Below, in pieces: positions 4 through 8,529 of a stretch of 11,955 bases of DNA. A model generated the notes under the pieces. The model worked only from the letters and a program-made list of their open reading frames with translations. It had not been told where the DNA came from and made no database searches. Made by a program: the position numbers and the translations under genes. The DNA comes from a virus. How positions within the stretch are numbered: the first letter of the stretch is position 1; each line of letters begins with the position of its first letter. Location: UHGV virus genome UHGV-0104567; one strand, written 5' to 3'.

Positions 4-44
4 TGTGTACACTTTTGTGTACCCAAAAACAAAAATGTGTACCC
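4..44 (+). repeat. Three direct repeats of TGTGTAC(CC) immediately upstream of int (candidate integrase arm-type / att-proximal or int regulatory sites)
   Basis: TGTGTAC at 4-10, TGTGTACCC at 16-24 and 36-44, read directly; each preceded by a T- or A-run. Function is inferred from position only. Confidence 0.4.
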
Positions 45-49
45 ATTCA

Positions 50-1243
50 ATGATCACCGACACAAAGCTCAGGAAGGCGCTCGGCAAGAAAAGAGATGAT
101 ATCGAGATTATTTCTGATTCGCACGGGCTCAACGCCAGAATCAGCCAGGCCGGAAAAATATCATTTTTCTATCGGTATCGCTGGGCCGGTAAAGCGGTAA
201 AACTCAATGTTGGTGATTATCCTGCAATGAGTATCACCCAGGCAAGAGAGCGTCGCCAACAATTCAGAAACTGGTTAACTGAGGGACTGGATCCGCGAGA
301 GCAGGTGAAGCTGGATAAGCAGACCCGACAGGAAGCGATGTCCGTTGCCGAAGCGTTCAATTACTGGATTGAAAGGCACTGTATCGCTAACGGGCTAGTT
401 AAAGTCGATTACTATCGCCAGGTGTTTGAGAAACATATCGCCGAACCGATGAAGAATGTCAAAGTCGATAACACAGCGAAAATGCACTGGATCAACGTCT
501 TCGATTCTATAGAAAGCAGGGTGATGGCTCATTACATGCTTTCGCTGTGCAAACGGGCGTTTAGGTTCTGCGTTAACAGAAGTGTGATCGCCTCAAACCC
601 ACTCGAGGGATTACTGCCATCTGATGTCGGGCAAAAGCCTAAAAAGAGAACTCGCAGGATGGACGATGACGATCTGCGCAAAATCTATCAGTGGTTGAAA
701 AGCCATATGTCGATAGAGTCCGTTTTCCTGGTGAAATTTATTATGCTTACCGGATGCCGTACGGCTGAGATTCGACTTAGTGAGAGATCATGGTTTCGAT
801 TGGATGATAATGAGTGGGTCGTGCCTGCGGGCAGTTATAAAACTCGGGTACATATTAGAAGGGGACTCTCAGACGCCGCCGTTAACCTGGTCAGAAATCA
901 CCTCAAGAAAATAAACACCAATCACCTGGTGACTTCACAACGTAAAATTGATGGCGGGATCAAAGATTCGCCCGTTCATTCACCTGTGGCATCCAATTAC
1001 GCCCGTTCTATTTGGAATGGAACAGGTATGGCAGAGTGGTCGCTTCATGATATGAGGCGGACGATAGCCACAAATCTCTCTGAGTTAGGTTGCCCGCCGC
1101 ACGTAATTGAAAAGCTGCTCGGGCATCAGATGGTGGGGGTTATGGCGCATTACAACCTTCATGACTATATCGATGATCAGAAACACTGGCTCCGCGTTTG
1201 GCAGAGCCATCTTGAAGAGATCATCGGAGAGCCCTTCAGTTAA
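50..1243 (+). CDS. int: Tyrosine recombinase / phage integrase, P4-type (IntR-like) with N-terminal arm-binding DUF4102-like domain
   Basis: ATG at 50 gives [10 protein letters not shown]...[10 protein letters not shown], the characteristic P4-family integrase N-terminus. C-terminus has [11 protein letters not shown] ... LLGHQ ... MAHY consistent with the Arg/His/Tyr catalytic motifs. The track ORF begins at GTG 5, but the 5' extension lies in the repeat region and lacks family similarity. Confidence 0.9.
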
Positions 1244-2883: not shown

Positions 2884-5793
2884 TTATGCCTGAGTACGCA
2901 GCGCTTCAAGGCGGCGCAGGTCGAAGTCGTTCAGTTCGTCGGTGTAGTCAGCAGTGATTGGCGCTGGCCATTCACCTGTGTCGAATCCGGTTGCGATATT
3001 GCGCATCGCTTTGCGGTACTCGAGCATACCCAGCTCCAGTAGTTCAGCGGATGCCTCGATGATGGCGATCCAGTGGTAGTTCTCGTCTTTGTTGACGAAA
3101 ATCCAGAAGAACTGATCCAGCGCTGCGGTTTCGCAGTACATAGCCGCGCTCAGGTGATAATCACGTTCAATAATTTCCCGGTGTAGCCTGGCGCGCAGGC
3201 TTTCCTGCTTAACATTCCACATGCTGATGGTTTTCAGGTCTGCACCTATACGCACGCCATCCAGGTCGATCTCAAGGTCAGGGCGCACACGAACTTCCAA
3301 GCCCGTCTCCTCGTCAAAACCAAAGTAGCTCACCTCAACGGCTCGGCTAGGGTGGGTCAGCAGCATGCCGGCGGTCGGGTGTGCCAGAAGCGCTTTTTGA
3401 ATATTCAGCGCGGTGCTCAGCTGCTGGCGGGTGACCAGCACTTTTCCTTCCGGGTTATCGCGCCAGGCATCCAGCAGTTCGTCGGCAAATACGGCATCTG
3501 GTTTGACTGCCTTCACGGCCTGGATCATGTCTGCTTTGGTACCGGACACTTTCAGTGGTGCCGGTTTCTGTGCTTCCTGAGCCACAAGGTCAGGGTTGAT
3601 GATTGCCAACTGCTCCAGCAGCGCGTCACGGCTGCCGCTGGTTTTAACCGGCGGCGGCAGGGTGGCGTTGTACTCTTTAATGCATGCCTTCATTGCCGTC
3701 GCCGTCTGCTTCTGGTCACCATCAATACGCTGGAAGTCAGCTGGCAGCGCCATATAGTTCTGTGCCGTTTCTTCCAGGTTAGCGCCAAGCGGAACCTGCG
3801 GCGGCAGGGTGGCGTTGTACTCTTCCAGTAACACCTTGATGTCGTCGGCAGACAGCAGCGCCGGCAGGCTGGCATTGTGCTCATCGATAAAGGCGCGCAG
3901 GGTCGCGGCCGTTGTGAATGCGCCTTCAGGGATCACCGGTTCAACGCTGAATTCTGCGTCCAGTAGTTCAGGCTGCAACGCCAGCGCATGCACCAAGTTG
4001 CCCATGTCCAGCACCGCTGAGCGCTCTTTGACGATGGTTTTCTCTACGTGGCGCGCATTGAAGTACATCAGCGAAACGCGCGCATCTTTCACCTGGGTTG
4101 AGCTGATGCCGTTGGCGGCGTGGTAAACCTCGTTTGGCAGCCCTTCATAGCGGCCTGGCTCGAAATAAGCGGGATAAACAACAGCTGGTTCGTCAGATTG
4201 CGCTTCTGGCTCGGTTTGTGCTGCAACTGGTTCGGTTTGGCTTACAGAATCGCTATTTTTGGCGACAGAATCCGTATTCTGGTCTACATCGTCCTTCTGG
4301 CTGGTATCTGACTCTTCACCAGACTCCAGACTGCTTTCGCCTGGCTGTACTTCATCACCAGCTTGTTTTTCATCACTGACAGTTTCTTGAACCTGCACAT
4401 TGCTGGTGGTCTCCGTAGCCTTTTTCGTGCCATGAGTTGCTGAGTTCTGCAGCAAAGCCGTAACGTCGAATATTCCGTTGCCGACATTTTTAACCAGTTC
4501 TTGTTCGACTTTCTGCGGTTGTGCTGCCGCTTCCTCTGCGCGGCGGCGTGCTCCTTCTTCACGCACGCGTTGCAGGTTCTCTTCGTGAGTGCAGAAGGAT
4601 TTGCGCGGAGACTCCTTACCTTCAGGTTGGGGAATTTCCTGTGCTGCGGGTTCAGCCTCATGCAACGGCAATAACTCGACCGCGGAATTGAACGCGGCTG
4701 TCATGGTCTGGTTAACAAATTCCAGGTGAGCGACAGGAGTTAAATGAATATTTTCCGGTGCGATACGTACCAGGTTAAAAATAGCCGTGCGGTTAACACC
4801 CAGAACGCCTGGCTGATTGCGCAGGATGTTGCTCCATGATTTCCATGGTTCTTCTTTTTTGGTCACGATTTCTTTAGCGCGACGAAGAATGCTGCCCGGG
4901 ATCTCGAAGTGGTTGAAGTCCATAGGCAGAAGGGCACACGCAATCTCTAAATCGAGAGTGTCCAGTGTGTGGTGTGCGTCAGGTCCACGGTCAGTGACGT
5001 AACCGCCGTCGGCATTAGTGCCGGAATCAGTACGCTGCACACTACTGATGCGATTACCGGCGGCCCATTCACGCGCCAGGATGCCACGGTCAATGTAATC
5101 AGTCGCCGCCCACATTCTGGTGAAACGGAGTACCAGCGCGAGTTCGTGACGCTTGTCCTGGCTGAACACTTTGCGAATGGCATCGGTGTAGCGCCACAGG
5201 TCTTTGGTGTCGTAACCCTTCACTTCCGGGCAGTTCTCAGCAGCTAACAGCAAGTTCTGGACGTAACTGTTATCAGTGTCCATCTCCAGCGCGCCGATAG
5301 CTTCGTACTCTTCGTGGGTTACGTGGTGGCGCAGTTCGTCGGCGGTGAACTGGGAAAGCAGTTGCTTACGAAACGGCATCTGCACTACCGGGTAGAGGGT
5401 TGAGTCGTCGTCGTGTTCGTCCAGCGTGATGCCAGCGGTTTCTGGCAGCGTTGACTCAGTAGTTATGTGACTATCAACGGTCTGAGCCGTTTTCTCGTCA
5501 GAGTTTTCAGCTGTGACTTTTGGCAGCCAGGTGCGGTCATCGTTCTGCAGTTCGTAGCGTTCGCACCAGGTGTAATCCACTGCGCCTTCTTCCGGCAGGT
5601 CGTCATATACCGGGAAATCGGTGCGGATTGGTTTGGCATAATCTTTACCGCGGCCAGTTTCTTCAATTCCGGCTTCTTCCAGTGCCACATCGAGTTGGAG
5701 ATTGGCGCGCGCTACACTTTTCGCAGTGAACCAAATCACTGCATCTTTCTTGCCAGACTTCTGACTGGCTTTTATCAGATGGAAAAATTCCAT
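2884..5793 (-). CDS. recE: Exodeoxyribonuclease VIII (RecE-like) with C-terminal PD-(D/E)XK nuclease domain
   Basis: 969 aa, ATG at 5793 with SD AGAGGA. N-terminal segments DFPVYDDLPEEGAVDYTWCERYEL and TDYIDRGILAREWAAGNRIS resemble E. coli RecE as I recall it. C-terminal RPDLEIDLDG...GADLKT fits PD-(D/E)XK motifs. Synteny with recT. Confidence 0.8.
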   Translation of the reverse strand: MEFFHLIKASQKSGKKDAVIWFTAKSVARANLQLDVALEEAGIEETGRGKDYAKPIRTDFPVYDDLPEEGAVDYTWCERYELQNDDRTWLPKVTAENSDEKTAQTVDSHITTESTLPETAGITLDEHDDDSTLYPVVQMPFRKQLLSQFTADELRHHVTHEEYEAIGALEMDTDNSYVQNLLLAAENCPEVKGYDTKDLWRYTDAIRKVFSQDKRHELALVLRFTRMWAATDYIDRGILAREWAAGNRISSVQRTDSGTNADGGYVTDRGPDAHHTLDTLDLEIACALLPMDFNHFEIPGSILRRAKEIVTKKEEPWKSWSNILRNQPGVLGVNRTAIFNLVRIAPENIHLTPVAHLEFVNQTMTAAFNSAVELLPLHEAEPAAQEIPQPEGKESPRKSFCTHEENLQRVREEGARRRAEEAAAQPQKVEQELVKNVGNGIFDVTALLQNSATHGTKKATETTSNVQVQETVSDEKQAGDEVQPGESSLESGEESDTSQKDDVDQNTDSVAKNSDSVSQTEPVAAQTEPEAQSDEPAVVYPAYFEPGRYEGLPNEVYHAANGISSTQVKDARVSLMYFNARHVEKTIVKERSAVLDMGNLVHALALQPELLDAEFSVEPVIPEGAFTTAATLRAFIDEHNASLPALLSADDIKVLLEEYNATLPPQVPLGANLEETAQNYMALPADFQRIDGDQKQTATAMKACIKEYNATLPPPVKTSGSRDALLEQLAIINPDLVAQEAQKPAPLKVSGTKADMIQAVKAVKPDAVFADELLDAWRDNPEGKVLVTRQQLSTALNIQKALLAHPTAGMLLTHPSRAVEVSYFGFDEETGLEVRVRPDLEIDLDGVRIGADLKTISMWNVKQESLRARLHREIIERDYHLSAAMYCETAALDQFFWIFVNKDENYHWIAIIEASAELLELGMLEYRKAMRNIATGFDTGEWPAPITADYTDELNDFDLRRLEALRTQA
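3651..3824 (-). repeat. Perfect 27-bp direct repeat inside recE, copies at 3651-3677 and 3798-3824, 147 bp apart (in frame)
   Basis: GCGGCGGCAGGGTGGCGTTGTACTCTT occurs twice, read directly. On the coding strand it encodes the duplicated peptide EYNATLPP, 49 codons apart. Confidence 0.85.
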
Positions 5794-5932
5794 GTGAGAT
5801 CCTCTTTTTTGGGTGTTAGAATCCCCGGACCATTGATAGCGCCCATTGGGTTAACTTTGGTTTTAATGTTGTTTCCGGTGTAACTTTGGTCGGTACCACC
5901 GGACGTAGATCCCGCCTTGCGCGGGTTTTACG

Positions 5933-6094
5933 TTAGCCTTCGTGAGCCATCTGGTCGTGCGAAGCGCAACGTTTGGAGCAATACTCTTTTTCTTTGCGCG
6001 CCAGCTGTGAGCCGTTGCGATAGAGAAGGGTGCTCTTGATTACTTCCTCCGTTTTAACCGGCTTGCCGCAATATCCGCATTTCTTGTCTAACAT
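5933..6094 (-). CDS. Small zinc-ribbon protein, 53 aa (CxxC...CxxxC); YdaE-like by position
   Basis: Not in the supplied track (below size cutoff). Hand translation: MLDKKCGYCGKPVKTEEVIKSTLLYRNGSQLARKEKEYCSKRCASHDQMAHEG. SD GGAGG 5 nt upstream of ATG, directly after the stop of the upstream gene (coupled). Confidence 0.5.
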   Translation of the reverse strand: MLDKKCGYCGKPVKTEEVIKSTLLYRNGSQLARKEKEYCSKRCASHDQMAHEG

Positions 6095-6105
6095 GACATC
6101 CTCCG

Positions 6106-6312
6106 CTAGTGGCTGAGTCCATGCCCCAGACCGTTCAGATAAACTTCAACCAGCAAATCCTTGGTGTAAGTCATTTCTACGCCGCGATGCAGATACAAAC
6201 GTCCGCGAGCGTTAGCTGATGCCGTCCAGGTTGAGTCTTTGTGTTTGACGAGCATCCCCGGCTGAACTGCGCCGCGGTTTACTGTCTGTGTACCGTAGTG
6301 CTGATGAACCAT
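6106..6312 (-). CDS. Small protein at the kil position of lambdoid/Rac early operons (68 aa; function not established)
   Basis: ATG at 6312 with SD GGAG 6 nt upstream. The track ORF extends to a GTG at 6471 with no SD. Kil-like assignment is positional only. Confidence 0.5.
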   Translation of the reverse strand: MVHQHYGTQTVNRGAVQPGMLVKHKDSTWTASANARGRLYLHRGVEMTYTKDLLVEVYLNGLGHGLSH

Positions 6313-6491
6313 GATGTACTCCAGTTTTTCTGAGTGAACTTCGCTGGTGGTGCCGTGGTGCTGATCTTCACAGTTGAGCGTTTTAACTCTGCAGTTCACC
6401 ACCGCGAAACCCACTCTTATGTGCCTGTCTTTTATCCACTTCAGGCTCGGTGGTATGCTGGTAGTTCTCACACAGCCAGCAAGGAATAACT

Positions 6492-6785
6492 ATGAAATCA
6501 GTAACTAAGCCATGTCCTATTTGTGGTGAAGATGCTTTGTCTTTTAACCAGACAAATCAGTTGGTTAACATCAAAGTAAAACCACCAACTATTCGTGAAG
6601 TTCCATCAGTGGTTTACGTTTGCGATACTCACGGATGGTTTTCACTTTCAGAACAGATAAACAGACTCGTCACATCTAATAACGACCCTGCGGCTAAGCA
6701 AAAACTGGCTGTTATTGTCAAAGAGCGATATGTGCCGGAACAGGATCAGCCGTTAGCCCTGAAACCTATTGAGTCGCTCGCATAA
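6492..6785 (+). CDS. Hypothetical zinc-ribbon protein (97 aa; CPICG ... CDTHG), opposite orientation to flanking early genes
   Basis: ATG with SD AAGGA 7 nt upstream. CxxC and CxxH pairs about 30 residues apart suggest a zinc ribbon, possibly like the MqsA N-terminal (YgiT-type) finger, but no HTH follows. Visibly more AT-rich than flanking genes. Confidence 0.6.
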   Translation: MKSVTKPCPICGEDALSFNQTNQLVNIKVKPPTIREVPSVVYVCDTHGWFSLSEQINRLVTSNNDPAAKQKLAVIVKERYVPEQDQPLALKPIESLA

Positions 6786-7035
6786 GGTCTTTTCGGCTCT
6801 CGCTGCGATATCCCAGGCGGTACATTTTCACGTAGGCTTTGCCGCGAGGAATGCCGCCTGTTTTGTTGAATCTCTGCTGGGCGCGGCGATGGTGTTTTGC
6901 TTCAGGGCTGTTTGAACCTTTCCCGCCATTCGATCGAGAACTTGGGAGTTGCATTGGCTTTTGGCGTGAATAGAATTTACGTGCCCAGCATGCTCCAAAG
7001 CCGATCATGCCTGTTTTCTTCGTATTACCTTTCAT
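6766..7035 (-). CDS. Hypothetical small basic protein (89 aa, Lys/Arg/Gly-rich)
   Basis: ATG at 7035 with SD GAGGGG 6 nt upstream. The track ORF extends to 7128. Overlaps the convergent + ORF by 20 bp. Located where the N gene would sit relative to the repressor in lambda, but no N similarity recognised. Confidence 0.4.
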   Translation of the reverse strand: MKGNTKKTGMIGFGACWARKFYSRQKPMQLPSSRSNGGKGSNSPEAKHHRRAQQRFNKTGGIPRGKAYVKMYRLGYRSESRKDLMRATQ

Positions 7036-7188
7036 CTCAATCCCCTCGTTTGCCCTTGTCGCCAGGCTGGCGGAACATTTCTTAACCTGACAACGGTGCG
7101 CGTGTTGTCGATGGAGATAACAATACAAATTTTATTTTCATCTCGCAAGTGGAATGAAATGTAAATTTTCAATTAGGGGTACAGCAAA

Positions 7189-7208
7189 GCATCCAAGCTG
7201 TTGGATGC
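7189..7208 (-). terminator. Candidate weak intrinsic terminator downstream of the repressor gene (8-bp stem GCATCCAA/TTGGATGC, loop GCTG)
   Basis: Hairpin read directly. On the minus-strand transcript it is preceded by a U8 run and followed only by UUUGCUGU, so the T-tract is poor. Confidence 0.3.
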
Positions 7209-7230
7209 AATGAAAAAAAAGATGTGATTT

Positions 7231-7650
7231 TTACTTCTGAATGCTTTGGATGATGTTGGAAACGTCATCCTTGAGGAGATCTAGCTCTTTAAGGGTGGCT
7301 TTTGCGTGAACGATGAGGCGAAGCTTTTCTGCTTCAGGCATCTGGTTGAATAATGAGAGCAAAGCGATTTCTTTTTCATCCAGTTGCCGTGGAGGTTCAT
7401 GCATGCTCAGGTCATCATCACCTGCATCAGGCGGCATAAAAAACCAATGCTCTGGTTTACCTGTGGCAGCTGCAAGGCGTTTCAACCTTTCACCTCGAGG
7501 CGCAGACTCACCTTTAGCCCATTGCTGAACTGCCTGGGGAGTAACCATGGCTCTCCTGGCTATATCAGACATGTTCCAGCCGAATTCATCTTTGATGAGC
7601 TGAAGTCGGTAGGCGAACGCTTCATGAGGTGCTTTTTTCATGGCAATCAT
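7231..7650 (-). CDS. racR: Prophage repressor, XRE-family HTH (RacR-like)
   Basis: HTH segment WNMSDIARRAMVTPQAVQQWAKGE; divergent from a YdaS/YdaT-like pair, as for racR in Rac. Start ambiguous: in-frame ATGs at 7695, 7677, 7650 and 7641, none with a clear SD (possibly leaderless). I chose 7650 because it keeps the 14-bp palindrome intergenic and gives a typical XRE N-terminus. Confidence 0.7.
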   Translation of the reverse strand: MIAMKKAPHEAFAYRLQLIKDEFGWNMSDIARRAMVTPQAVQQWAKGESAPRGERLKRLAAATGKPEHWFFMPPDAGDDDLSMHEPPRQLDEKEIALLSLFNQMPEAEKLRLIVHAKATLKELDLLKDDVSNIIQSIQK

Positions 7651-7680
7651 TCTACAAGGTAGCCTTTCATAGTGCATTGC

Positions 7681-7716
7681 AAATATTATTTTCATTCTTG
7701 ATTGAAAATAATATTT
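7681..7716. promoter_or_regulatory. Operator-like perfect inverted repeat (14-bp arms AAATATTATTTTCA / TGAAAATAATATTT, 8-bp spacer) in the divergent repressor / cro-like control region
   Basis: Read directly. Sits within five TTTCAT repeats (7636-7641, 7665-7670, 7690-7695, 7715-7720, 7735-7740). Candidate -35 TTGATT (7698-7703) and -10 TGTAAT (7723-7728) lie upstream of the cro-like gene, whose SD is GAGG. Confidence 0.5.
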
Positions 7717-7756
7717 TCATGTTGTAATCTCATTTTTCATTCACTGAGGGCTGGAT

Positions 7757-7984
7757 ATGACCAAATCAATCAAACAGCGAGTATGCGATGTCATGACTCA
7801 AACAGAGATCGCCAAGAGTCTTGGCACAACTTCTCAAGCTGTAAGTCTATGGCTGAACCATGAGGTTCCCGCGCATCGAGTGCTCCCGATTTGCAAGTTA
7901 TTGGGATGGAAAATCACTCCACATGAAGTACGTAGTGACATTTATCCCAATCCTACAGACGGGCTGCCAAAACAGGAGTCCTGA
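7757..7984 (+). CDS. ydaS: Cro-like HTH regulator, YdaS family
   Basis: 75 aa; TEIAKSLGTTSQAVSLWLNHEVPAHRVLPICKLLGW matches the YdaS/Cro-type HTH pattern. Divergent from the repressor and followed 3 bp later by the YdaT-like gene. Confidence 0.7.
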   Translation: MTKSIKQRVCDVMTQTEIAKSLGTTSQAVSLWLNHEVPAHRVLPICKLLGWKITPHEVRSDIYPNPTDGLPKQES

Positions 7985-7986
7985 CC

Positions 7987-8529
7987 ATGCATGCCATTTC
8001 ATATCAACAAAATACCGGAATAACTCCGGTGGCGATGATAAATCGCAATCAGCCAAGTGCGGCAGATAAGCACGAACAGATCCGCGATGCCGTTCGTGCC
8101 TGGGCCGCATCACTGGATAACCAGGATGTGGTTGCCGGAATCATCGTTGAAGAATGGGAGAGACAGGGCGGTGCCGGGCTGGATTTTCCAGAAGACCTGA
8201 GCCGTAAGCGTCAGAAACTCTTCCGATGGCTCGATGGTGATACGGAGTATGCGCGCAAAAACATCAGCCAGCTGTCACCCGCGATCCTCGCCGTTCTACC
8301 GCTTGAGTTCCGTGGCCGCCTGGTACCCCAAGACTGCTTTATGACGCGTTATGCAGCGATGGAGAAGGAGATCGGCGAAGCGAAACGCGCGGTAATTCTG
8401 AGGGCGCCACAGCATCAGCTGGTGAAAGAGGTGAGAGAGGGCATTGAACACCTGCTGGCGCTTCTGCCAGGGGAGGCTGTTGTTCAGGTTCTGAGTGGTC
8501 TCGCGGTAATGAGCCCGGGCGTAATGTGA
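7987..8529 (+). CDS. ydaT: YdaT-family protein (historically annotated as toxin YdaT; CII-like regulator by analogy)
   Basis: 180 aa; segment EEWERQGGAGLDFPEDLSRKRQKLFRWLDGDTEYARKNISQLSPAILAVLPLEFRGRL fits my recollection of the YdaT family. SD AGGAG 8 nt upstream of the ATG. Confidence 0.7.
   Translation: MHAISYQQNTGITPVAMINRNQPSAADKHEQIRDAVRAWAASLDNQDVVAGIIVEEWERQGGAGLDFPEDLSRKRQKLFRWLDGDTEYARKNISQLSPAILAVLPLEFRGRLVPQDCFMTRYAAMEKEIGEAKRAVILRAPQHQLVKEVREGIEHLLALLPGEAVVQVLSGLAVMSPGVM

What the first reader, a model, noticed from the sequence alone, without database searches (positions are those of the whole stretch)
6766..7230. Small basic ORF with strong SD, upstream hairpin and candidate promoter at the N-gene position
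Seen: an 89-aa Lys/Arg/Gly-rich ORF (ATG 7035, SD GAGGGG) downstream of the repressor on the same strand. Upstream on the minus strand are a 6-bp-stem hairpin (plus coordinates 7089-7109, GACAAC...GTTGTC) and a possible sigma70 promoter (-35 TTGCGA at 7148-7143, 17-bp spacer, -10 TATTGT at 7125-7120). Established: in lambda, pL-nutL-N occupies this position relative to cI. Inference: a pL-like early-left promoter and its first gene; whether the product is an antiterminator is unknown, since I see no N-like arginine-rich N-terminus or boxA.
Basis: partly seen in the sequence, partly recalled or inferred. Interest (0 to 1): 0.4.

Follow-up and report, generated by a model that had tools for sequence, protein, structure and literature searches.

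The report
Prophage early-left promoter and first gene
This stretch holds the repressor-controlled "early-left" promoter of a Gifsy/Rac-type prophage, a conserved untranslated leader and a real small basic gene of unknown function that always comes with a convergent zinc-ribbon gene; it is ordinary phage architecture and not a lambda N-like antiterminator.

Summary
The 89-aa ORF (7035..6766, minus) is a real gene: about 30 homologues keep the 89-aa length, and dN/dS is about 0.2. It has no known domain. The weak promoter (TTGCGA-17-TATTGT) is credible as pL. Two 17-bp operators (TGAAAAT-N3-ATTTTCA) flank it and recur between the repressor and cro. Related phages keep TTGnnA-17-TATTGT while their operators change with the repressor. 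The hairpin is unremarkable energetically. It opens a roughly 77-nt leader whose 34-nt core is nearly invariant in over 100 viral contigs, in Gifsy-1/2 and in about 55 Enterobacterales species. This leader is absent from Rfam. The gene is very unlikely to be N. The first gene after the same leader differs among at least 12 families, even in a phage with an identical repressor. The core occurs once per phage, so there is no nutR twin, and the protein has no Arg-rich N-terminus. The 89-aa gene always pairs with a convergent 97-aa CPxC/CxxH gene, overlapping it by at least 20 nt. Together they form a roughly 635-bp cassette inserted between the pL leader and kil. The functions of the pair and of the leader core remain inferred.

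The parts
7231..7641 (-). Prophage repressor of the short DicA/GtgR type. It has no peptidase domain. The mechanical ORF runs to 7695, but homologues start at the ATG at 7641 (136 aa).
   Evidence: Pfam HTH_3 at 1.9e-10. 52% identical over 138 aa to the Gifsy-2 repressor STM1012. NCBIfam DicA at 1.7e-11, below its cut-off. tblastn homologues align from residue 19.
7181..7208 (-). Intrinsic terminator-like hairpin after the repressor gene, upstream of pL: GCATCCAACAGCTTGGATGC followed by TTTGCTGT.
   Evidence: Found by the terminator scan. Related phages have a hairpin plus T-run at the same place with different stem sequences.
7155..7171 (.). Distal left operator, TGAAATGTAAATTTTCA, just upstream of the -35.
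   Evidence: 2 mismatches to TGAAAAT-N3-ATTTTCA. The motif has 4 hits in the window against 0.71 expected. Repeat families link it to 7678-7739. It is conserved in the same-immunity cluster.
7143..7148 (-). pL -35 hexamer, TTGCGA.
   Evidence: Read directly. The equivalent position holds TTGCCA, TTGCTA, TTGTCA or TTGCAT in phages of the same immunity cluster.
7124..7140 (.). Proximal left operator, TACAAATTTTATTTTCA on the plus strand. It fills the promoter spacer and touches the -10.
   Evidence: 2 mismatches to the operator motif. In other immunity types a different palindrome sits at this same spot.
7120..7125 (-). pL -10 hexamer, TATTGT.
   Evidence: Read directly. A TAnnnT hexamer sits at a constant distance from the conserved leader start in about 80 distinct loci. 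The identical TATTGTTATC..CCATCGA occurs in L137 behind TTGACT-17.
7112..7113 (-). Predicted transcription start (CCATCG). Cross-phage conservation begins here.
   Evidence: Inferred from the -10 position. The conserved block starts at CATCGACAAC in all v1 leaders. Not mapped experimentally.
7089..7109 (-). Leader hairpin 1, GACAAC-ACGCGCACC-GTTGTC, starting 3-4 nt after the predicted 5' end.
   Evidence: Unique perfect match in the window. The sequence is conserved in at least 120 IMG/VR contigs and in Gifsy-1/2. Other leader variants carry different small hairpins here, and a few carry none. Energetically unremarkable.
7048..7081 (-). Conserved leader core, GAAATGTTCCGCCAGCCTGGCGACAAGGGCAAAC. 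It contains a candidate 4-bp stem, GCCU (7067-7064) paired with GGGC (7055-7052), around the 8-nt loop GGCGACAA.
   Evidence: Covariance-model hit of 58 bits, E 1.4e-12, with a single strong copy per source in 100 sources. The stem is 100% and 98.9% paired; its one variable pair is U-G, G-C, U-A or C-G, or is deleted on both sides together. The alternative stem CGCCA/UGGCG is no better than shuffles. Not in Rfam.
7042..7047 (-). Shine-Dalgarno sequence GAGGGG, 6 nt before the ATG.
   Evidence: Read directly.
6766..7035 (-). 89-aa basic protein gene, first cistron after pL in this prophage.
   Evidence: phrog_29236 at 1.5e-56, function unknown. 32 homologues at 62-94% identity, almost all 89 aa. 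dN/dS 0.20-0.23. AlphaFold2 pLDDT 56.
6492..6785 (+). Convergent 97-aa partner gene with a CPxC...CxxH zinc-ribbon motif. Its last 20 nt overlap the 3' end of the 89-aa gene.
   Evidence: phrog_31519 at 3.8e-60. 22 homologues; C8, C11, C44 and H47 are invariant. It co-occurs with the 89-aa gene in 17 of 17 loci examined. AlphaFold2 pLDDT 90, with no PDB or viral structural match.
6414..6491 (+). Conserved promoter/leader cassette driving the 97-aa gene. It has an extended -10 (TGgTATGCT), a CTGG..CCAG hairpin and an AAGGAA SD.
   Evidence: 83-94% identical upstream of unrelated plus-strand genes in Rac-SA53 (rac10), SfII (gene 36) and Klebsiella phages. The promoter assignment is inferred from the sequence.
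7678..7739 (.). Right operators between repressor and cro: 7678-7694, 7703-7719 (a perfect palindrome) and a weaker third at 7723-7739.

Best explanation
The interval is the left arm of the immunity region of a Gifsy/Rac-type lambdoid prophage.

Shown by sequence and comparison:
- The repressor gene (7641..7231) ends in a terminator hairpin.
- Downstream lies a sigma-70 promoter, TTGCGA-17-TATTGT, with one 17-bp operator in its spacer and another just upstream of the -35. The same operator type sits between repressor and cro.
- The predicted transcript starts at about 7112. Its roughly 77-nt leader (a 5'-proximal hairpin, then a nearly invariant 34-nt core, then the SD) is shared by a large family of Enterobacterales prophages.
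- The first cistron, the 89-aa basic protein, is a real gene under purifying selection.
- This gene and the convergent 97-aa zinc-ribbon gene form one roughly 635-bp cassette. Phages such as mEp237 lack it, and there the leader core runs straight into the kil 5' UTR.

Inferred:
- In the lysogen the repressor occupies both left operators and shuts pL. The 97-aa gene can still be expressed from its own conserved extended -10 promoter.
- On induction (by an antirepressor for this repressor class) or on infection, pL fires. The 89-aa protein is made first. Transcription then runs antisense through the 97-aa gene into kil-ydaE-recE-recT, opposing expression of the 97-aa gene.
- The 5' hairpin most likely protects the mRNA 5' end.
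- The core most likely acts on the sense RNA as a small protein-bound or processing/translation element at the junction between the immunity module and the early-left module.
- The 89-aa protein (net charge +19, largely disordered or helical) most likely binds nucleic acid or its zinc-ribbon partner. It is an accessory protein, not an antiterminator.
For: Gene is real.

Promoter and operators:
- Operator motif has 4 hits against 0.71 expected, clustered at the two expected places.
- Phages with 87-100% identical repressors keep TTGnnA-17-TATTGT, the distal operator and a terminator that is conserved in structure but varies in sequence.
- About 80 distinct leaders show a TAnnnT hexamer at a fixed offset, behind immunity-specific palindromes.
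- L126 shows the same logic with another operator type present at both OR and OL.
- The repressor is 52% identical to Gifsy-2 GtgR. In Gifsy phages a recE-lacZ fusion in the leftward operon is induced by mitomycin C, and GtgR binds the Gifsy-2 right operator (PMC3121763). In Qin, DicA represses the analogous promoter dicBp (PMC10448788).

Leader:
- Conserved in at least 120 viral contigs, Gifsy-1/2, mEp237, Chris1 and a Klebsiella phage, and in about 55 Enterobacterales species representatives.
- Single copy per phage.
- The stem is kept through U-G, U-A, G-C and C-G changes. The predominant U-G pair is possible only on the pL-sense RNA.

Cassette:
- The pair is present in 17 of 17 loci.
- The insertion relative to mEp237 is seen.
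- The conserved plus-strand promoter cassette is seen.
Against: - No transcription start, repressor binding or translation has been measured for this element.
- The promoter matches only 8 of 12 consensus positions and was not called by the scan.
- Hairpin 1 and the whole leader are not more stable than shuffles, and a few leader variants lack hairpin 1.
- Support for the core stem rests on one variable base pair; the other three never vary. Alignment A7 was hand-picked.
- In L137 the core lies after another gene and a terminator, not next to pL. Its role is therefore not tied to initiation.
- The proposed functions of the two proteins, and the antagonism through convergent transcription, have no direct evidence. 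The 89-aa model has low confidence.
Confidence: 0.75

Rival explanations
1. The 89-aa protein is an N-like processive antiterminator and the upstream hairpin or core is its nutL site.
For: It sits first after pL, downstream of the repressor, as N does in lambda. The protein is very basic and predicted to be largely disordered. The leader has a conserved linear stretch followed by a small stem with a conserved loop, loosely like boxA plus boxB. Two rare variants have GGAAGA and GAAAGA loops.
Against: - The same leader precedes at least 12 unrelated first genes, including in L014, which has an identical repressor.
- There is no second (nutR) copy in the window, in the whole Gifsy-2 genome or in 100 sources, at E up to 1.
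- Only 1 Arg occurs in the first 22 residues.
- No similarity to any annotated family.
- BLASTP finds no similarity to the L137 protein labelled N, which lies upstream of the identical 89-aa gene.
- No intrinsic terminator was found on the minus strand inside the left operon of the window.
Confidence: 0.04
2. The conserved leader (hairpin 1 plus core) is a self-contained cis-acting RNA. It would modify transcription elongation like HK022 put, or block Rho, so that the long left operon with toxic kil is read only from pL.
For: It lies at the very start of a left operon of at least 6 kb. It is nearly invariant while both flanks vary. The stem is kept through compensatory changes on the sense strand. 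It is not in Rfam. From memory, Rho is known to silence kil in Rac.
Against: It is single-copy, whereas HK022 has putL and putR (from memory). The helices are tiny and not thermodynamically distinctive. In L137 the core lies after a gene and a terminator, in a phage that appears to carry its own N. No intrinsic terminators are seen downstream in the window. Nothing here tests Rho.
Confidence: 0.12
3. The core is conserved mainly as a recombination linker, a short patch of homology at a module boundary that lets phages swap immunity and early-left modules. It would have little or no RNA function.
For: It sits exactly between two hypervariable regions. Mosaic joints fall inside or next to it. 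E. coli MSB1_9D is 99.3% identical to window 6400-7080 and unrelated beyond. Different first genes share the SD and even the codons ATGAAAGG(T/C)AA. The core travels to new contexts, as in L137, L126 and mEp237.
Against: Near-identity across many genera needs selection. The one variable stem position changes in a pairing-preserving way, with U-G predominating, which points to the sense RNA. The two explanations are not exclusive.
Confidence: 0.2
4. The 89-aa and 97-aa genes form a two-part switch. The zinc-ribbon protein is made in the lysogen, for exclusion, defence or restriction-related activity. The basic protein is made from pL on induction and neutralises or replaces it. Convergent transcription and overlapping 3' ends reinforce the switch (toxin-antitoxin-like or sieB/esc-like logic).
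For: The two genes always co-occur and overlap at their 3' ends. The partner diverges to 40-45% identity while the 89-aa protein stays at 73-77%, and the pairing is still kept. The 97-aa gene has its own promoter cassette, shared with other genes in the sieB slot of Rac-like phages. The pair is a discrete insertion. There are weak Lar/restriction-alleviation hints for the zinc knuckle (NCBIfam E 0.018; BFVD E 0.44).
Against: No match in PADLOC. No toxin or antitoxin domain. No significant structural neighbour. The genes are convergent, not a co-directional autoregulated operon. No expression or interaction data exist. The Lar hints are far below the family threshold.
Confidence: 0.2
5. The ORF is a chance reading frame, and the interval is only the untranslated leader of kil.
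For: No known domain and a low-confidence structure model. Overlapping antisense ORFs exist.
Against: Length and frame are kept in about 30 homologues at 62-94% identity. dN/dS is about 0.2, with differences concentrated at third positions. A strong SD sits at ideal spacing. Antisense frames carry stops that are not conserved.
Confidence: 0.02

Closest known systems
Lambda cI - OL/pL - nutL - N
   Same: The gene order and logic match. The repressor gene and leftward promoter are on the same strand. Multiple operators overlap the promoter and recur at the rightward promoter. A first small basic protein is followed by kil and recombination genes.
   Different: - The repressor is the short DicA/GtgR type without a cleavage domain.
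- There are two clear left operators rather than three.
- No boxA/boxB pair and no nutR twin.
- The first gene is interchangeable and has no N features.
Gifsy-1/Gifsy-2 immunity region of Salmonella (GtgR/GogR repressor; Lemire et al. 2011, PMC3121763)
   Same: The repressor is 52% identical. The noncoding leader between the repressor and the first leftward gene is 81-84% identical, including hairpin 1, the core and the SD. The downstream recE/recT module is the same, with an isrB-like RNA.
   Different: The operators and -35 differ, so the immunity differs. The first gene in Gifsy-2 is a 38-aa ORF (MIDFARKP...), not the 89-aa gene, and there is no convergent pair. As far as I could find, the paper does not describe the leader.
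Qin dicA - dicBp - dicBF operon of E. coli K-12 (PMC10448788)
   Same: A short DicA-type repressor with a pL-like promoter downstream on the same strand. That promoter drives an operon encoding cell-division inhibitors and is derepressed by an antirepressor. NCBIfam gives a DicA hit at 1.7e-11.
   Different: The operon content differs (ydfABC, DicF, dicB against the 89-aa/97-aa pair, kil, ydaE and recET). The NCBIfam score of 44 bits is below the 101-bit cut-off. I did not test whether the leader core exists in Qin.
Rac prophage racR - ydaG/ydaF - sieB - kilR - ydaE - racC - recE
   Same: The module order is the same, including a gene on the opposite strand in the sieB slot between the first leftward genes and kilR. 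In Rac-SA53 the same conserved promoter cassette precedes that gene, and it overlaps a convergent leftward gene.
   Different: The genes in the two slots are unrelated in sequence (BLASTP finds nothing).
HK022 put RNA (cis-acting antiterminator)
   Same: A structured RNA transcribed immediately downstream of pL, with two small stem-loops. The comparison is from memory.
   Different: Here the element is single-copy per phage. Its helices are much smaller and not distinctive in energy. No terminators are evident downstream. I did not test sequence relatedness.

Membership tests
Lambda N-type antiterminator protein | Arginine-rich RNA-binding motif at the N-terminus | tested here: not met
   The first 22 residues, MKGNTKKTGMIGFGACWARKFY, hold 1 Arg and 4 Lys. 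The N-terminus MKGNTKK is invariant in the family.
Lambda N-type antiterminator protein | Sequence or profile similarity to known N families | tested here: not met
   No Pfam, NCBIfam or PDB-sequence hit. The PHROG family has no known function. No BLASTP similarity to the L137 protein labelled PF26859. Caveat: the local Pfam copy lacks PF26859.
Lambda N-type antiterminator protein | Cognate nut sites in both the leftward and the rightward early transcripts | tested here: not met
   Hairpin 1 and the core each occur once in the window, once in the 45.8-kb Gifsy-2 genome and once per source in 100 sources.
Lambda N-type antiterminator protein | The gene co-inherits with its nut site | tested here: not met
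   The same leader is followed by at least 12 unrelated first genes. L014 has an identical repressor, pL and leader but a different first gene.
Lambda N-type antiterminator protein | Terminators downstream that require antitermination | tested here: inconclusive
   No minus-strand intrinsic terminator lies between 7035 and recT. Rho-dependent terminators cannot be detected with these tools.
Repressor-controlled sigma-70 early promoter (pL type) | -35 and -10 hexamers with a 16-18-nt spacer | tested here: met
   TTGCGA-17-TATTGT matches 8 of 12 positions, a weak match below the scan threshold. The hexamers are kept in the same-immunity cluster and in L137.
Repressor-controlled sigma-70 early promoter (pL type) | Operators overlap the promoter and are shared with the divergent pR/pRM region | tested here: met
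   Sites at 7124-7140 and 7155-7171, and at 7678-7694 and 7703-7719. The motif has 4 hits against 0.71 expected.
Repressor-controlled sigma-70 early promoter (pL type) | A mapped transcription start and repression by the cognate repressor | not testable with these tools
   Only indirect support exists. Gifsy recE-lacZ fusions respond to induction, and DicA represses dicBp.
DicA/GtgR-type short prophage repressor | N-terminal HTH, about 135 aa, no S24 autocleavage domain, homology to GtgR/DicA | tested here: met
   Only HTH_3 is found. 52% identity to GtgR over the full length. DicA subfamily hit below its cut-off.
Type II toxin-antitoxin pair | Two adjacent small genes that always co-occur | tested here: met
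   Present in 17 of 17 loci.
Type II toxin-antitoxin pair | A co-directional operon and a recognisable toxin or antitoxin domain | tested here: not met
   The genes are convergent with overlapping 3' ends. There are no Pfam, NCBIfam or PADLOC hits.
Any described RNA family (Rfam 15) | A covariance-model match to the leader | tested here: not met
   No hit at E up to 1 in window 5800-8100, nor in four related loci that carry the long leader form. Only isrB was found, elsewhere.

The most novel reading that the evidence does not exclude
The roughly 77-nt pL leader may be an undescribed cis-regulatory RNA class of Gifsy/Rac-type prophages. It has a 5' hairpin and a nearly invariant 34-nt core whose 3-4-bp stem presents the loop GGCGAYAA. 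It could be a binding site for a host or phage factor that controls elongation, processing or translation of the whole early-left operon. The 89-aa/97-aa convergent cassette inserted right after it may be a new lysogeny/induction switch module, in which the two proteins antagonise each other.
Probability: 0.2. Interest if true: 0.55.

Novelty: new member of a known kind. Interest (0 to 1): 0.3.

Why it matters
The finding itself, a repressor-controlled leftward promoter and its first gene in a lambdoid prophage, is textbook architecture. Its main value is correct annotation: it locates pL, the operators, the terminator, the real start of the repressor and a real small gene.

Two by-products could matter more.

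First, a leader element is conserved across many Enterobacterales prophages, including the well-studied Gifsy-1/2 of Salmonella. It is absent from Rfam, and I found none of the three leader strings I searched for in the paper library. It marks the exact junction where immunity modules and early-left accessory genes are exchanged. If it has an RNA function, it would control expression of kil, recET and many accessory genes.

Second, an obligate convergent gene pair of unknown function sits at a hotspot where related prophages carry exclusion or defence genes.

Tried and rejected
- **N/nut reading.** Rejected for the reasons given under the rival explanations.
- **Hairpin as a repressor operator.** Rejected. 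It is conserved among phages whose repressors are only 30-50% identical and whose operators differ. No related site exists near cro.
- **Alternative core stem CGCCA/UGGCG.** Not better than shuffles, and broken in several variants.
- **Long-range helix GUUGUCAGG/CCUGGCGAC from the MFE fold.** Not pursued. The whole-leader z-score is only -1.1.
- **IsrB-like sRNA (5835-5931) pairing with the leader.** No better than shuffled leaders.
- **Rfam.** Nothing for the short or the long leader form.
- **Function of the 89-aa protein.** No information from Pfam, PHROG, NCBIfam, PADLOC, PDB sequences or a 1.84-billion-protein profile search. That search found only 8 representatives at E up to 0.001, of which 3 (P0033, P0035, P0036) align from residue 1 and look like family members. 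The AlphaFold2 model was too poor (pLDDT 56) to justify a fold search.
- **The Phage_N_antitermin label in L137.** I could not reproduce it with the local Pfam or with PHROGs, so I use it only as a hint.
- **Literature.** No paper contains the three leader strings searched, or links Gifsy phages to nutL.
Full report
**Setting.** The window is a Rac/Gifsy-type lambdoid prophage segment. Its genes, in order, are:
- an integrase (5-1243, plus strand);
- small xis-region ORFs;
- recT (1760-2878, minus) and recE (2884-5793, minus);
- a ydaE-like gene (5933-6094, minus);
- kil (about 6106-6312, minus; phrog_294);
- a 97-aa ORF (6492-6785, plus);
- the 89-aa ORF of the finding (6766-7035, minus);
- an HTH_3 repressor (7231-7695 as the mechanical ORF, minus);
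- cro/YdaS (7757-7984, plus), YdaT (7987-8529, plus), then O- and P-type replication genes.

The repressor is 52% identical over its whole length to the Gifsy-2 repressor and has no peptidase domain. Homologues start at the ATG at 7641, giving 136 aa.

**Observation check.**
- ATG at 7035, stop at 6766.
- SD GAGGGG at 7047-7042, with a 6-nt spacer.
- Inverted repeat GACAAC-N9-GTTGTC at 7089-7109.
- TTGCGA at 7148-7143 and TATTGT at 7125-7120, 17 nt apart.
- A 20-nt overlap with the convergent ORF.

The protein has 11 K, 11 R and 11 G, a pI of 11.5 and a net charge of +19. On their own, the promoter and hairpin are not beyond chance. The promoter matches 8 of 12 consensus positions and was not called by the scan. 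The hairpin folds at -6.5 kcal/mol, which 18% of shuffles reach, and the whole leader has z = -1.1.

**The ORF is a real gene.**
- It matches phrog_29236 at 1.5e-56; the family has no known function.
- A search of 5.8 billion proteins returned 32 homologues at 62-94% identity, nearly all exactly 89 aa. The blocks MKGNTKK, GF, QKP, LPSSR and GG are invariant and IPRGK nearly so.
- Pairwise dN/dS among four diverged copies is 0.20-0.23, and differences concentrate at third codon positions.
- The family is narrow. A profile search of 1.84 billion cluster representatives found 8 at E up to 0.001, of which 3 align from residue 1 and look like family members.
- Pfam, NCBIfam, PADLOC and PDB sequences gave nothing.
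- The AlphaFold2 model is poor (pLDDT 56), with four short helices.

**The promoter is credible as pL because of its context.**
- A 17-bp palindromic motif, TGAAAAT-N3-ATTTTCA, occurs four times in the window at up to 3 mismatches, against 0.71 expected. Only 1 of 200 shuffles reached four hits.
- Two copies lie at 7124-7140 (filling the promoter spacer) and 7155-7171 (just upstream of the -35). Two more lie at 7678-7694 and 7703-7719, between repressor and cro, with a weaker third at 7723-7739.
- Phages whose repressor is 87-100% identical keep TTGnnA-17-TATTGT at the same place. They also keep the distal operator, and a terminator hairpin after the repressor gene whose stem sequence differs but whose structure persists.
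- Across about 80 distinct related loci, a TAnnnT hexamer sits at a fixed distance from the conserved leader. It lies behind palindromes that differ with immunity type.
- In L126 a different operator type occurs at both OR and OL.

The predicted start is at about 7112/7113 (CCATCG), exactly where cross-phage conservation begins. Published work fits this picture. In Gifsy phages, recE-lacZ fusions in the leftward operon respond to induction and GtgR binds the right operator (PMC3121763). In Qin, DicA represses the analogous promoter dicBp (PMC10448788).

**The hairpin is the start of a conserved leader.**
- Window 7043-7128 is 81-84% identical to the unannotated DNA between the repressor and the first leftward gene of Gifsy-1 and Gifsy-2.
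- In these contigs the block from CATCGACAAC to the SD is conserved, while the upstream operators and the downstream gene both vary.
- The most constant part is a 34-nt core, GAAATGTTCCGCCAGCCTGGCGACAAGGGCAAAC (7081-7048).
- The core also occurs without hairpin 1 in mEp237, Citrobacter phage Chris1, E. coli MSB1_9D, L126 and L128. There it lies behind a longer, different 5' leader with its own operator-flanked promoter.
- In L137 the core lies after another gene and an intrinsic terminator.
- A pattern scan of one genome per species found the core in about 55 Enterobacterales species. These include Leclercia, Kluyvera, Klebsiella, Enterobacter, Citrobacter, Lelliottia, Buttiauxella, Erwinia and Pantoea. 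There were also chance hits in GC-rich unrelated taxa.
- Only 63 of 5,426 complete E. coli genomes carry it.
- Rfam has no match, and none of the three leader strings searched appears in the paper library.

**Structure in the leader.** Two mutually exclusive small stems are possible in the core.
- GCC(N)/(N)GGC around the loop GGCGAYAA is paired in 100% of cells in a hand-picked set of 14 variants. Its single variable pair is U-G in 9, G-C in 2, U-A in 2 and C-G in 1. The covariation score is 0.217 against 0.073 in shuffles, reached by 1 of 500.
- In an alignment of loci that had been fetched by hairpin 1, that pair is U-G in 11 and G-C in 3, and both sides are deleted together in 12.
- The rival stem CGCCA/UGGCG is no better than shuffles and is broken in several variants.
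- The predominance of U-G means that any such structure is read on the pL-sense RNA.

This evidence is thin, because three of the four pairs never vary. For hairpin 1, other leader variants carry unrelated small hairpins at the same position (AACGC/GCGTT, AGCAC/GTGCT, CGCG/CGCG and others), and a few carry none.

**Why the gene is not N.**
1. The first gene after the same leader belongs to at least 12 unrelated families, kil among them. L014, with a 100% identical repressor and the same pL and leader, has a different first gene.
2. A covariance model of the core finds exactly one strong hit per source in 100 sources. These include the window (7048-7081, 58 bits) and the complete Gifsy-2 genome, so there is no nutR counterpart.
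3. There is no Arg-rich N-terminus.
4. In L137 the identical 89-aa gene lies downstream of a 98-aa gene that the precomputed table labels PF26859 Phage_N_antitermin, followed by a terminator. I could not confirm that label locally. BLASTP finds no similarity between the two proteins.
5. No intrinsic terminator is seen on the minus strand within the left operon. Rho-dependent sites cannot be assessed.

**What the gene belongs to.**
- In all 17 loci examined, the 89-aa gene is paired with the convergent 97-aa gene, with overlapping 3' ends. In Phytobacter the gene caller missed it, and the protein is extended to 105 aa.
- The partner has an invariant CPxC...CxxH motif and an invariant C-terminus.
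- The partner is preceded by a conserved promoter/leader cassette at 6414-6491, with an extended -10. The same cassette stands in front of unrelated genes in the same slot of Rac-SA53, SfII and Klebsiella phages.
- Alignment with mEp237 shows that there the leader core runs straight into the kil 5' UTR. The window therefore carries a roughly 635-bp insertion between them, about 7047 to 6414. It comprises the SD, the 89-aa gene, the 97-aa gene and its promoter.
- In relatives, the space between the repressor and pL holds defence-type genes (BstA, HipA-like plus DUF3037, a protein kinase, DUF6932) followed by terminators, as rexAB are placed in lambda.

**Most likely mechanism.**
- *Shown:* the layout, the operators, the conservation, the coding status and the cassette structure.
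- *Inferred:*
  - The repressor shuts pL in the lysogen while the 97-aa gene can be expressed from its own promoter.
  - On induction, pL produces the 89-aa protein first and then transcribes antisense through the 97-aa gene into kil and recET.
  - Hairpin 1, only 3-4 nt from the predicted 5' end, probably protects the mRNA. This draws on the known effect of 5'-terminal stem-loops, which I recall from memory.
  - The core acts on the RNA as a small factor-binding, processing or translation element, or is kept as a recombination linker, or both.
  - The 89-aa protein is an accessory nucleic-acid-binding or partner-binding protein.

**Verdict.** The pL interpretation is supported and the N analogy is not. 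This is a new member of a known kind of element. The conserved leader and the obligate gene pair remain modestly interesting open questions.

Noticed in passing
window 5835-5931 (+): A sub-threshold match to the Hfq-binding sRNA isrB (28.6 bits, gathering score 35, E 0.015), ending in a good terminator at 5911-5925. It lies antisense between ydaE and recE. The same element occurs at the same place in L126, L128 and mEp237 at 28.6-34.4 bits.
   Followed up: partly
window 6414-6491 (+): A conserved promoter/leader/SD cassette (TGCCTGTCTTTTA.CCACTTCAGGCTCGGTGGTATGCTGG...CCAGCAAGGAA) stands in front of unrelated opposite-strand genes in Rac-SA53, SfII, Klebsiella and Aeromonas phages. It looks like a portable expression cassette for the sieB slot.
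   Followed up: partly
L126 3850-4000; L128 3870-4000; L123 (mEp237) 2400-2535: A second, longer leader form of about 140 nt (CCCACGAAGTAGC..GGCATACGAA..CGGATGAGGTGG..TTAACGCGCA..) precedes the same core in many Enterobacterales. By eye it shows apparent compensatory changes in at least one stem (GCCG/CGGC, GCUG/CGGC, GCG/CGC). It is not in Rfam.
   Followed up: partly
window about 7080: A mosaic joint. Two E. coli chromosomes are 99.3% identical to window 6400-7080 and unrelated to the right of it. The breakpoint therefore falls inside the leader, between hairpin 1 and the core.
   Followed up: yes
L132, L136, L128, L126 (between the repressor and pL): Relatives carry defence-type genes in the rexAB-like slot downstream of the repressor and upstream of pL: BstA_C, HipA-like plus DUF3037, a Ser/Thr kinase, or DUF6932. 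Each set is followed by two intrinsic terminators. The window has no such insert.
   Followed up: no
window 6817-6865, inside the 89-aa ORF: CAGGCGG...(about 33 nt)...CCGCCTG forms a long-range inverted repeat, conserved in six diverged homologues. Read in the sense of the 97-aa gene, it is followed by a U-rich run in four of the six. It may be the terminator of the 97-aa mRNA, embedded in the conserved TGGIPRGK...RLG coding region.
   Followed up: partly
window 7642-7695: The mechanical repressor ORF starts 18 codons upstream of where all homologues start and runs into the right operators. The real start is probably the ATG at 7641.
   Followed up: yes
window 6313-6471 (-): The 121-aa ORF listed for kil is an upstream extension. 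The kil family matches only residues 47-120, and the extension corresponds to the conserved kil 5' UTR seen in mEp237.
   Followed up: yes
L137 1990-2050: In the N-bearing relative, the pL leader shares the first bases (TATTGTTATCCCATCGAAAC) with the window. It then contains a terminator-like hairpin, GGCGGACAGCAAGTCGCC followed by TGCTTTTT, early in the transcript.
   Followed up: no
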